NCBI GenBank assembly: GCA_964016885.1
Contig: OZ024755.1
Location: 12,524,001 to 12,588,000 of the forward strand
Reading direction: 5' to 3'
DNA: 64,000 nt
From: Eledone cirrhosa
Taxonomy: Eukaryota
Made by a program: the position numbers and the translations under genes. How positions within the stretch are numbered: position 1 is the first letter of the stretch; every line of letters starts with the position of its first letter. The notes below the pieces were generated by a model. It was given only the letters and a program-made list of their open reading frames with translations. It made no database searches and was not told the origin of the DNA. Positions 4,532 to 36,280 of the stretch are shown in pieces.

Positions 4532-4733
4532 TAATAAACAACATAAGATAATTATTCCATTTACCAGTGGTTTCTTGAAGACAGATATTTATATCTGTCT
4601 TCAGTTGTCAGTATGAATAACATAGAATGTTTAATAAACATTCTATATTATTCATTCTGACGACTGAAGACAGATATAAATATGTCTTCAAGAAACCACT
4701 GGTAAATGAAATAATTATCTTATGTTGTTTATT
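4532..4733. repeat. long inverted repeat (hairpin) carrying head-to-head hammerhead copies
   Basis: ~100-bp arms centred near 4633, e.g. taataaacaacataagataattatt / aataattatcttatgttgtttatta. Confidence 0.9.
4651..4710 (+). ncRNA. type I hammerhead ribozyme (family E)
   Basis: ttcatt-CTGACGA-c tgaagaca(gatataaata)tgtcttca a-GAA-ACCA c TGGT-A-aatgaa; GUA cleavage triplet; the minus-strand partner at 4555-4617 has core CTGACAA. Confidence 0.8.
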
Positions 4734-4969
4734 ACATAACTAAAAAGCTCTGTAGCCTACATAGAGCACTCTCTTTTCCTTTACCTTTCCTACGGAAATA
4801 CTTTATATATATATATGAACTAAAAGCCTGTTGAAAAAGTGACTTCCTTGTTCAATCATCTTACCAGAAGCCTAACATTATTTGTCTAAGCGGACAGTAC
4901 TTGATTTAGGAGTCGCAGAAACCCAAATGCTGGACTTTCACCAAACATCCAGGGGTCCGGGTAAATTTT

Positions 4970-11748: not shown

Positions 11749-11944
11749 TAGGACGAGAACTGTTTCATTCGGGAGAAATCATCAAGGAGCCATCAGGAAG
11801 CCAATCAGGGCTTCCTAATGATTTCTCCCGAATGAAACAGTTCTAGTCCTGTAGAAGCCATTTCTGTATTAAATATTTGTACTGTGCTATAATTTGAGGA
11901 CCTTATTCACTGTGGTTACCCCCGATTGAACCCGAGATAAACTT
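11749..11944 (+). mobile_element. family A HHR module with inverted 5' partial copy
   Basis: HHR at 11809-11859: ggcttc-CTAATGA-tttc tccc gaat-GAA-ACAG ttctagtc CTGT-A-gaagcc (core G5->A); tail ctgtggttacccccgattgaacc. Confidence 0.75.
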
Positions 11945-22398: not shown

Positions 22399-22619
22399 AT
22401 ATATATTGGAAAATGTGTGAGATCCTTGGTACAGTTAGGTATATTTGAAAAAAAGAAAAGAATGACTTCACTTGTAGTTCTAAACAATTTGATTTAATTT
22501 TATATTATAATATTATAGAATTAAATCAAATTGTTTAGAACTAGAAGTGAAGTCATTCTTTTCTTTTTTTCAAATATACCTAACTGTACCAAGGATCTCA
22601 CACATTTTCCAATATATAT
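22399..22619. repeat. near-perfect ~220-bp palindrome
   Basis: atattggaaaatgtgtgagatccttgg... / ...ccaaggatctcacacattttccaatat; centre near 22510. Confidence 0.95.
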
Positions 22620-23126
22620 CAACTCAACCACGGATTACACATATTGAACATCGATCCCTAGAATCCACCACATCCCAAGAATATTACCCAGCATTCCACC
22701 ACATCCTCTACGGAACTACCTTAAGGACTCACCCACTGACATACACTCAAAAAAAATGTTTTCCCACACGCCACCTACATCCACAACACGCATAAACACC
22801 ACACACACACGTGTGTACACCACATATTTACACACTCAGCCTCCGGAATCCTCTCTCCCCACCCCTCTGACCCCTCCCCATCCACACACGCACACACACA
22901 CACCGACCTACACCCCACTCCACCCCACCCCACCTCCCTCTCCCCACTCCACCCCCCCTACACGCCCCACATCCTTCCACCACCTGTTTTACTTCATGTT
23001 TATTTTTATTTTTATTATGCTTTTATATTTAATTTCATTTGTACCGTTTCCTCTCACCCCCTTTTTTTTCTATATGTCTCTCCACCACTCCCCTACACAC
23101 CCTTGGAACTCTCTTCCCACACTTTT

Positions 23127-26872: not shown

Positions 26873-26873
<1 letters not shown>

Positions 26874-27075
26874 ACGAAGGAAATGTGGTAAGGAACCAGA
26901 TGGACCATAACGCACCAAAGTACTCAATACTTAGGGTAGTAGAGTGGGTAATAGGAACGAGTAGGACCCCGACGGCTGAGCTCAAGCCGTTTCGACGGTT
27001 AATTCTGGACTAAAATTTTAGTCCAGAATTAGCCGTCGAAACGGCTTGAGCTCAGCCGTCGGGGTCCTACTCGTT

Positions 27076-27079
<4 letters not shown>
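26873..27079. mobile_element. family X head-to-head inverted pair
   Basis: Palindrome centred on ctggactaaaattttagtccag (~27015); both arms carry GAAACGGC...GCCGTC. Confidence 0.8.
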
Positions 27080-27121
<42 letters not shown>

Positions 27122-30119: not shown

Positions 30120-30146
30120 ATATATATATATATATATATATATAAA

Positions 30147-30567
30147 TAATATATAAGATCAAAAGATGGTTAAAAGAGTTCCATGTATTTTATTATGCGC
30201 ATTTCAAAAACAAATATCATCATGCAATAACATTTACGTTTTCGTCAGATAAAATAGGGAGACATGATATGAAGGTTAAAACACACTTGTGAATAGTGCA
30301 GTTTTAAATCAACATATGTTGATCTAAAACTGCACTATTCACAAGTGTGTTTTAACCTTCATATCATGTCTCCCTATTTTATCTGACGAAAACGTAAATG
30401 TTATTGCATGATGATATTTGTTTTTGAAATGCGCATAATAAAATACATGGAACTCTTTTAACCATCTTTTGATCTTATATATTATTTATACTCCAGTCCT
30501 ACAAACTGTAGAGTGCTTCTTATCCGATATCTGCATTGCTTTATTGTACTACAATAAAACTCACCTC
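30147..30567. mobile_element. family C head-to-head pair: ~170-bp-arm hairpin with two intact HHRs
   Basis: Centre tcaacatatgttga (~30316); + HHR at 30375-30445 tattttat-CTGACGA-...-GAA-ATGCGCAT-A-ataaaata; - HHR at 30186-30256. Confidence 0.85.
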
Positions 30568-30568
30568 C

Positions 30569-30629
<61 letters not shown>

Positions 30630-30631
30630 GT

Positions 30632-30870
30632 AGAGGAGACTGAGGTTAGCTGGACATGCTCACCGACATCCAGAGTTGACATTGCACTCAGTGGTCCTTT
30701 GGGAGCCCCTACATGGACACACTAGAAGAGGAAGACCAAGGTTAACGTATGTTGATGCCTTAAGGACAGACACTGGTCTGTTGGAGATGCAGGACATGGC
30801 AGCGATAATGAGGGACAGAGACCGCTGGAGAGAACTCGTCCATGGATCTCGGGAATTTTACCCGCCTTAG
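30632..30870 (+). pseudogene. RTE-clade LINE ORF C-terminal fragment
   Basis: RRLRLAGHAHRH...VLWEP.HG...RGRPRLTYVD.L..D.G......M.DRDRWR is a typical RTE C-terminal signature; second copy at 62905-63215. Confidence 0.85.
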
Positions 30871-35097: not shown

Positions 35098-35318
35098 TAT
35101 TTTAATAAATAAATATATATATATATATATAAAATCATATACACGCACACATGTATATATAAATATAGGGTATTCAAATAAATTTAAGGTAAAAGACTAA
35201 TTGTCAACAATATCTTTTGCATTTGTATTTATATTCTATATCCATACCCGCATTGTCTTCGCCTGACAACTCCAAACGTTTATATATATATATATACACA
35301 TACACACACATATATATG

Positions 35319-35365
<47 letters not shown>

Positions 35366-35411
35366 TCTGTTATATATATATATATATATATATATAGATA
35401 TAGATATATAT

Positions 35412-35611
35412 ACGTTATTCCGGGTTGAATCGGAGGTAACCACAGTAAGGTACTCAATACATTGCAGAGTATAAAAGTTTTAATATAGATGAGATTCTAC
35501 AGGACTAGAACTGTTTCATTCTTTAGAGATCATCAGGAATCTCATCAGGGATTCCTGATGATTTCTAAAGAATGAAACAGTTCTAGTCCTGTATAATCTC
35601 ATCTATATTAA

Positions 35612-35615
<4 letters not shown>
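35412..35615. mobile_element. family A head-to-head pair
   Basis: - HHR at 35488-35546 with a 10-bp stem I (gatgagattc/gaatctcatc); + HHR at 35550-35603. Confidence 0.85.
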
Positions 35616-35666
<51 letters not shown>

Positions 35667-35963
35667 CATCTGTTTGTGTATATATAAATATATATATATT
35701 CATCTGCTATATATATATGTTCATCTGTTAGTGTATGTATATATATATATATACATACATACATACATACATACATACATACACAAACAGATGAACATGC
35801 ATTAGATAGAAGTACATACTACAAAGCGATAAACTGACATGCGAATGAATTTTAGACAGAGAAAATTGGAAGGAAATATGCAATTAGTGGTAAGAGCGAC
35901 GCACGACAACGGAGAAGGGGATGTAATGTACCGCATGCTATGTACGCATATATATAAGCCTGG

Positions 35964-36094: not shown

Positions 36095-36280
36095 TAAGCT
36101 ATTCCGGGTTCAATCAATCGGGGGTAACCACAGTAAGTAAGGTACTCAATAAATAGCAGAGTATAAATGGTTTAATATAGAAAAGCTCCTACAGGACTAG
36201 AACTGTTTCATTCGTGAGAAATCATCGGGTATGATTTCTCACGAACGAAACAGTTCTAGTCCTGTAGAAGCTTTTATGTA
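36095..36280. mobile_element. family A head-to-head pair, fused within the cores
   Basis: Inversion point near 36228; both arms carry GAAACAGTTCTAGTCCTGTA. Confidence 0.75.

What the first reader, a model, noticed from the sequence alone, without database searches (positions are those of the whole stretch)
30147..30567. Ribozyme modules occur as head-to-head inverted pairs forming long hairpins
Seen: families A (11749, 35412, 36095, 52655), B (53370), C (30147), E (4532) and X (26873, 46668, 60415) share one architecture. A longer arm is joined to a shorter inverted copy, with the junction within or up to ~60 nt upstream of the HHR, so the ribozymes point outward on opposite strands. Established: Penelope insertions often carry an inverted partial pLTR. 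Inference: a shared cDNA fold-back or self-priming step. Read-through transcripts would form 60-170 bp dsRNA that could silence the ribozyme and provide ADAR or Dicer substrates, which matters if the host is a coleoid with extensive A-to-I editing.
Basis: partly seen in the sequence, partly recalled or inferred. Interest (0 to 1): 0.75.

Follow-up and report, generated by a model that had tools for sequence, protein, structure and literature searches.

The report
Penelope hairpins meet at capped start
These hairpins are real and of a known type, two back-to-back end pieces of Penelope-like jumping genes, but their centres fall at one fixed base and often carry an extra G, which suggests that both halves were likely copied separately from the same capped RNA up to its first letter.

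Summary
The hairpins are real. Each is one insertion of the hammerhead-bearing end (pLTR) of a Penelope-like retrotransposon, a layout already described and found by this scan in sharks and in this genome. In 1.6 Mb of evenly spaced genome, 56 neighbours lie head to head and 2 tail to tail; all 56 join a tailed arm to a tail-less arm. The junction does not track the ribozyme: 0 of 133 X starts and 0 of 55 A starts lie at the cut, and X arms lack the catalytic core. In X, A and C it tracks one base with initiator-like sequence (TATA box at -29 in A). Arms ending there often carry a G that the element lacks (36 of 84; 324 copies in one A subfamily), sometimes on both arms. That is the mark L1 and SVA copies get from the RNA cap. 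Most likely both ends of a DNA break prime on a capped sense RNA, both cDNAs run to its 5' end, and repair joins them. Simple fold-back fits less well. Not an assembly artefact; no RNA data, and no editing signal in the sampled arms.

The parts
30141..30317 (-). Family C short arm: from the probable +1 (30317) through the hammerhead to the first fixed 3' end; no tail
30314..30572 (+). Family C long arm: from the probable +1 (30314) through the hammerhead and tail to the second fixed 3' end, then (TA)n
30314..30317 (.). Junction: the first four bases (ATAT) of both arms overlap; the same 4-nt overlap recurs in 6 back-to-back pairs among the first 100 listed of 1997 exact matches
30375..30445 (+). 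Type I hammerhead motif, core at 30383, predicted cut after 30437
   Evidence: not the minimum-energy fold on its own
30186..30256 (-). Mirror hammerhead motif, core at 30248
30491..30572 (+). Tail of about 80 nt between the two fixed 3' ends
4532..4800 (.). Family E pair (short arm -, long arm +), hammerhead motif in both arms
11749..11940 (.). Family A pair; long arm starts at +1 with an extra G
26873..27080 (.). Family X pair; both arms start inside stem II and lack the core
35415..35615 (.). Family A pair; duplicate of 52657-52861 with the 8-nt spacer inverted
36100..36275 (.). Family A pair, junction inside the core
46666..46860 (.). Family X pair (second subfamily)
52657..52861 (.). Family A pair
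53370..53800 (.). Family B pair; long arm switches subfamily at the hammerhead cut region
60414..60600 (.). Family X pair (third subfamily)

Best explanation
Each hairpin is a single insertion of two head-to-head pLTR pieces of a Penelope-like retrotransposon, likely made when both ends of a DNA cut primed reverse transcription separately on a capped sense RNA and both copies likely ran to the RNA's first base before repair joined them. Steps: (1, inferred from published in vitro work) the element's endonuclease cuts both strands in (TA)n; (2, ends shown, cause inferred) one DNA end primes at the near start site and the other at the far site 60-95 nt downstream, giving one tail-less and one tailed arm; (3, shown) both arms pass through the uncut hammerhead and stop at or just short of one base; (4, inferred) that base is the transcription start and the extra G is the copied cap; (5, junction sequences shown, enzyme inferred) the two single-stranded cDNA ends join bluntly, by short overlaps or with templated inserts, and each fills in on the other. 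Stubs that begin at +1 lack the upstream promoter and, in family X, the ribozyme core, so they are predicted to be inert by-products.
For: Long+short in 56 of 56 evenly sampled pairs and 37 of 37 pairs in search loci. Two fixed 3' ends per family, also in raw reads of a separate study (L122:771 and 849 followed by (TA)n); two internal RT starts bounding the tail and cutting of both strands are shown in vitro for an anole element (PMC11167929). 5' ends: X 66 of 94 within -6..+8 of one A; A 12 of 50 exactly at +1 and none from -1 to -9; C 4 of 8 within 1 nt; contig depth rises about 25-35-fold across that point in X. TATAAA at -29 in A, at -30/-31 before a shared YCACT in four B references. G at -1 in 36 of 84 junction arms against 7, 2 and 7 at -2, -3, -4; never G in arms that run on natively. 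One A subfamily, whole genome: G 324, non-G 303; 21 of 21 inspected G rows are junctions, 12 of 12 C rows keep native upstream sequence. X, whole genome: 5603 non-native bases at -1 against 1027 at a control position; G:A 44:9 against 20:49 in the first 100 rows of each. Both arms carry the G with 0, 1 or 2 nt between in three pairs among those 100 rows. No starts at the ribozyme cut (0 of 133, 0 of 55, 0 of 11). Arms come from one subfamily. RT and GIY-YIG-like ORFs adjoin families C, X, B and A.
Against: No RNA 5' end was seen. Part of the G excess can be templated by the partner arm or by snap-back; without the snap-back cases it is 19 of 38 against 23 of 88 in the control (p 0.013), and only about 7 of the 21 A rows have a G that the partner arm cannot supply (my reading). 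In X, C is as common as G at -1 (47 of 100); three are the partner's G read on the other strand, the rest are unexplained and may be a subfamily. TATA is weak in X and absent in C and some B subfamilies; two B references have it at -21. In B only 12 of 58 arms map within -6..+8, partly for want of subfamily references. The +1 positions were chosen by me after seeing the pile-ups. Spacers can invert after insertion, which weakens the test of which arm runs further (22 short, 11 long, p 0.08). No ORF was linked to family E; Pfam gave no hit for the C ORF pieces.
Confidence: 0.62

Rival explanations
1. Fold-back: one cDNA primed at the tail end runs to the RNA 5' end, snaps back, copies itself and is resolved at the near site by the endonuclease.
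For: Arms are of one subfamily and can share rare variants; many junctions hold templated inserts that look like snap-back synthesis; spacers can flip later; endonuclease resolution of the tail is proposed in PMC8557442.
Against: Short arm holds more native upstream sequence in 22 pairs, long arm in 11; flipping from an all-long start cannot give a short-arm excess, though the excess is not significant (p 0.08). Pairs with the extra G on both arms and 0-2 nt between leave no loop. Tail-less arms also occur alone in numbers, and the near site is an RT start in vitro.
Confidence: 0.17
2. Self-priming on an antisense transcript (Arkhipova 2013) makes the head-to-head palindrome.
For: Proposed in PMC3846280 to explain head-to-head junctions and intron retention.
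Against: The junction base, initiator-like motif, TATA and extra G all read on the sense strand; an antisense RNA would have its 3' end there and no cap.
Confidence: 0.06
3. Twin priming holds, but the stop is not a capped start: RT stalls at a structure or at a processed end (splice acceptor, lariat branch), and the G is a terminal-transferase addition.
For: In A, +1 is the first base of stem I; X has a pyrimidine run plus AG next to +1; RTs add bases at template ends (recalled).
Against: The stop lies at different places of the ribozyme in each family; B, C and E have no AG there; X arms keep the AG.
Confidence: 0.13
4. Library or assembly fold-back artefact.
For: No raw read spanning the window's own hairpin was shown.
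Against: Arms differ by 1.5-5%; both outer ends are family-fixed and (TA)n-flanked (42 of 56 pairs at both ends, background 10% per end); strand-switch joints at L122:710-713 appear in raw reads of a separate study.
Confidence: 0.02

Closest known systems
Inverted-pLTR-plus-tail insertions of endonuclease-positive Penelope-like elements (PMC3846280 passages and Discussion; PMC8557442 passages; PMC2377424 passages)
   Same: Head-to-head inverted 5'-truncated pLTR, tail on one side only, AT-rich targets, TATA and TCACT initiator-like motifs in the pLTR
   Different: Here mostly pLTR-only stubs; tails 60-95 nt, not 30-40; junction pinned to one base with an extra G, which these passages do not report; the sense-template reading opposes their antisense self-priming proposal
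Poseidon_Ac in vitro (PMC11167929, parts 1-2 of 4 read)
   Same: Two internal RT starts bounding the tail, both strands cut, uncleaved RNA used as template
   Different: The paper does not address the inverted copy or where the cDNAs stop
Opposite-strand pairs of minimal hammerheads in Schistosoma PLEs and the U3-A8 core (PMC4209133, parts 1-2 of 4 read)
   Same: Dual hammerheads 100-700 bp apart on opposite strands; X subfamilies carry the U3-A8 core
   Different: No junction analysis; families A, X and E have a paired helix III of 3 bp or more
L1 twin priming (Ostertag and Kazazian 2001; title seen in a reference list; mechanism recalled) and the cap-derived G of L1/SVA (PMC3287187 passages)
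   Same: Both target ends prime on RNA; an untemplated G marks full-length copies
   Different: L1 primes on poly(A) and at a chance internal site, giving an inversion without duplication; here two fixed sites give an inverted duplication
Animal non-LTR retrozymes (10.64898/2026.07.22.740005, part 1 of 5 read)
   Same: Type I hammerhead, pLTR-related
   Different: Not tandem arrays: 7 direct against 56 head-to-head neighbours

Membership tests
EN+ Penelope-like element | pLTR adjoining an ORF with RT followed by a C-terminal GIY-YIG endonuclease | tested here: met
   Family C pLTR lies downstream of the EN-like ORF end and upstream of the RT ORF start; Atlas neighbours include GIY-YIG (63% of one cluster, score 0.95) and RVT_1 (12-42%) clusters; same ORF type beside X and B, RT pieces beside A. 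Pfam: no hit for C or X pieces, one sub-threshold RVT_1 hit beside A. None found for E.
EN+ Penelope-like element | Tail at one end, bounded by two fixed 3' ends | tested here: met
   Bimodal 3' ends in all five families; raw reads for X
EN+ Penelope-like element | Type I hammerhead in the pLTR | tested here: met
   Motifs in all five families; three-way fold is the predicted minimum for full-length X, A, E, B, not for C. Cleavage not tested
EN+ Penelope-like element | Target-site duplication | not testable with these tools
   Both ends lie in (TA)n, where a duplication cannot be read
EN+ Penelope-like element | RT phylogeny within PLE clades | not tested
   The CxC..CP linker in C and X recalls Nematis/Neptune; the label is from memory
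Non-LTR retrozyme | Two or more complete hammerhead units in direct tandem | tested here: not met
   7 direct neighbours among 217 arms; X arms lack the core
MITE / foldback DNA transposon | Symmetric terminal inverted repeats | tested here: not met
   Outer ends are asymmetric in 56 of 56 pairs and the linked ORF is an RT
Cap-copied full-length retrocopy (L1/SVA-like mark) | Untemplated G directly before the transcript's first base | tested here: inconclusive
   G excess at one position is shown; that the position is a capped start is not shown

The most novel reading that the evidence does not exclude
Penelope hairpins are double strong-stop products: a dimeric enzyme primes both ends of one break at two fixed sites of one capped sense transcript and copies the cap twice, with no separate second-strand step. 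Thousands of such stubs then map each family's transcription start from DNA alone, and show that some families start transcription inside their own hammerhead (X) or at its first base (A), so that the 5' copy of the ribozyme is missing or would remove the cap.
Probability: 0.55. Interest if true: 0.68.

Novelty: new member of a known kind. Interest (0 to 1): 0.5.

Why it matters
How Penelope-like elements form their inverted ends, and whether they copy a sense or an antisense RNA, is stated as open in the papers read (PMC3846280, PMC8557442). If the junction is the capped start, the question becomes directly testable: CAGE should hit a named base in each family, and the existing in vitro system should give two cap-terminated cDNAs from one break. 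The hairpins themselves are ordinary by-products, though common (56 pairs in 1.6 Mb, a lower bound), so they are a possible source of double-stranded RNA wherever they are read through.

Tried and rejected
Rfam scan: only chance microRNA-type matches among the 150 rows shown of 345. Direct-repeat and ORF lists were swamped by microsatellites; no element ORF lies in the window. A short DNA query for an unbiased family C sample returned nothing; evenly spaced stretches were used instead. Pfam and PDB gave no hit for the C ORF pieces. No RNA holder listed. The Hi-C run laid no reads. Read depth in the two RAD runs is confounded by a pile of read ends at L122:718, probably a restriction site, and was not used as evidence. 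Junction at the ribozyme cut: rejected. A-to-G editing written back into DNA: no polarity in the pairs compared. An apparent TATA 14-28 nt before B junctions in L161-L171 was a flank of a duplicated copy, not native sequence. Two palindromic or unrelated references were dropped before the counts. Paper searches for twin priming, start sites or cap G in Penelope-like elements found no such report; the library lacks most subscription papers, and no supplements were read.

Full report
What is there. Window 30141-30490 is a 175-bp palindrome without spacer, 99% complementary; the + arm continues about 80 nt to 30572 and both ends meet (TA)n. Each arm holds a type I hammerhead motif pointing outward. 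The window lies in a 3.0-Gb, microsatellite-rich animal genome; earlier notes of the scan call it octopus-type, which I did not test.

What the elements are. Genome copies of family C continue upstream into the end of an ORF and downstream into the start of the same ORF, which has an RT-type YRDD motif, a CxC..CP linker and a GIY-YIG-like end. Pfam did not recognise these pieces; the Atlas places them near GIY-YIG and RVT_1 clusters. Related ORFs adjoin X and B, RT pieces adjoin A, none was found for E. The modules are therefore pLTR stubs of Penelope-like elements. The inverted 5'-truncated copy with a one-sided tail is described in PMC8557442 (passages) and PMC3846280 (passages, outline and Discussion); opposite-strand hammerhead pairs and the U3-A8 core in PMC4209133 (parts 1-2 of 4). 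This scan reported the layout in other genomes and in this one.

Outer ends. I sampled 155 stretches of 10 kb at set positions plus the window, 1,614,000 bases. Anchors found 217 arms (X 94, B 58, A 50, C 8, E 7); some diverged arms were missed, so pair counts are lower bounds. Same-family neighbours within 400 nt: 56 head to head, 2 tail to tail, 7 direct. 3' ends are bimodal in every family, and all 56 pairs, and all 37 in search loci, join a long to a short arm, where chance would mix about half. Raw reads of a separate study confirm both X ends followed by (TA)n. This matches the two internal RT starts that bound the tail in vitro, with both DNA strands cut and uncleaved RNA as template (PMC11167929, parts 1-2 of 4).

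The junction. 5' ends pile up at one place per family: X 66 of 94 within -6..+8 of the A in TTAGT, A 12 of 50 exactly at the first base of stem I with none from -1 to -9, C 4 of 8 within 1 nt of the A in TTCAT; B is less clear, 12 of 58 near a YCACT shared by ten references. Summed contig depth in two runs rises about 25-35-fold across this point in X. The place differs relative to the ribozyme: inside stem II in X, so that 0 of 48 paired X arms hold the core, at stem I in A, about 70 nt before the core in C. No start lies at the cleavage site (0 of 133, 55 and 11). A has TATAAA at -29, four B references at -30 to -33, two at -21; X has a weak match and C none. I picked the +1 bases after seeing the pile-ups.

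The extra G. Among 84 arms that break at +1, the base before is G in 36, against 7, 2 and 7 one, two and three places further out; in arms that run on natively it is never G. Without cases that snap-back could template, 19 of 38 non-native bases are G against 23 of 88 at other break points (p 0.013). In the whole genome one A subfamily has G in 324 and another base in 303 exact matches; of the rows inspected (first 20 loci of each list), all 21 G rows had lost the upstream sequence and all 12 C rows kept it (two of them by eye). In many G rows the partner arm could supply the G; about 7 cannot be explained so. For X, non-native bases at -1 number 5603 against 1027 at a control position four bases downstream; in the first 100 rows G:C:A is 44:47:9 against 20:31:49 (counted by hand; test). 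Three pairs there carry G on both arms with 0, 1 or 2 nt between, and three share one base. The C excess is otherwise unexplained. An untemplated G before full-length L1 and SVA copies is attributed to copying of the cap (PMC3287187, passages).

One cDNA or two. The short arm holds more native upstream sequence in 22 pairs, the long arm in 11, equal in 23. Where the short arm has extra 5' sequence and the long arm has the tail, neither can be a copy of the other. The test is weakened because spacers can invert: the duplicated A insertion has its 8-nt spacer in opposite orientations, and 22:11 is not significant. Arms are of one subfamily and differ by 1.5-5%, which fits one RNA or one source. 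Junctions show blunt joins, short overlaps and templated inserts; at the finding the arms overlap by ATAT, a junction seen in 6 pairs among 100 listed rows of 1997 matches. This looks like end joining of two single-stranded ends (polymerase theta-type repair, recalled).

Mechanism. Most likely (0.62) both ends of a break prime on a capped sense RNA at the two start sites, both cDNAs run to the 5' end, and repair joins them, as in L1 twin priming (recalled; title). Fold-back (0.17), a non-cap stop (0.13), antisense self-priming as proposed in PMC3846280 (0.06) and artefact (0.02) are rivals. In D. virilis the transcript starts within the upstream pLTR (PMC2377424, passages), which supplies the needed 5' copy of the start sites.

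Consequences. A read-through transcript is predicted to pair its arms rather than fold the ribozyme, but no RNA run was listed and arm differences show no A-to-G polarity.

Novelty. The structure is known. I found no report that the junction is the capped start in five paper searches or three look-ups of the scan's notes; the library is incomplete and no supplements were read. Verdict: a new instance of a known layout with a new, testable mechanistic footprint; interest 0.5.

Noticed in passing
window 53540-53800: The long arm of the B hairpin is one subfamily up to the hammerhead cut region and another subfamily after it, while the short arm is the first throughout; 1 of 74 B arms tested is discordant. 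Possibly a template switch between two RNAs at the palindromic helix III.
   Followed up: partly
window 35209-35685 and 52461-52931: Local duplication of one A insertion with its flank; the 8-nt spacer is inverted between the copies.
   Followed up: yes
window 22399-22760: A further long/short palindrome (110-nt arms) in (TA)n with no canonical hammerhead found; a second pair at L128:6863-7043. May be a PLE of a clade without the usual ribozyme.
   Followed up: no
   Followed up: partly
L106:932-1040, L084, L132-L144: Family X cores differ: U3-A8 in L106 and L084, C3 opposite A8 in the L132-type subfamily (predicted to be impaired), yet that subfamily has many copies.
   Followed up: partly
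L002:77-1240 (-): The family C ORF has an asparagine-rich stretch between thumb and endonuclease, like the N-rich inserts described for rotifer Penelopes (PMC3846280).
   Followed up: no
L161-L163, L169-L171 (contig C25, 4.87-5.36 Mb and 7.25-7.30 Mb): One internally deleted B stub with its flank is repeated many times at roughly 16-40 kb steps, probably inside a larger tandem unit.
   Followed up: no
window 30630-30870; L027:311-1420: The element right of the finding matches the 3' end of a different, non-LTR-type RT element seen more fully in L027.
   Followed up: no
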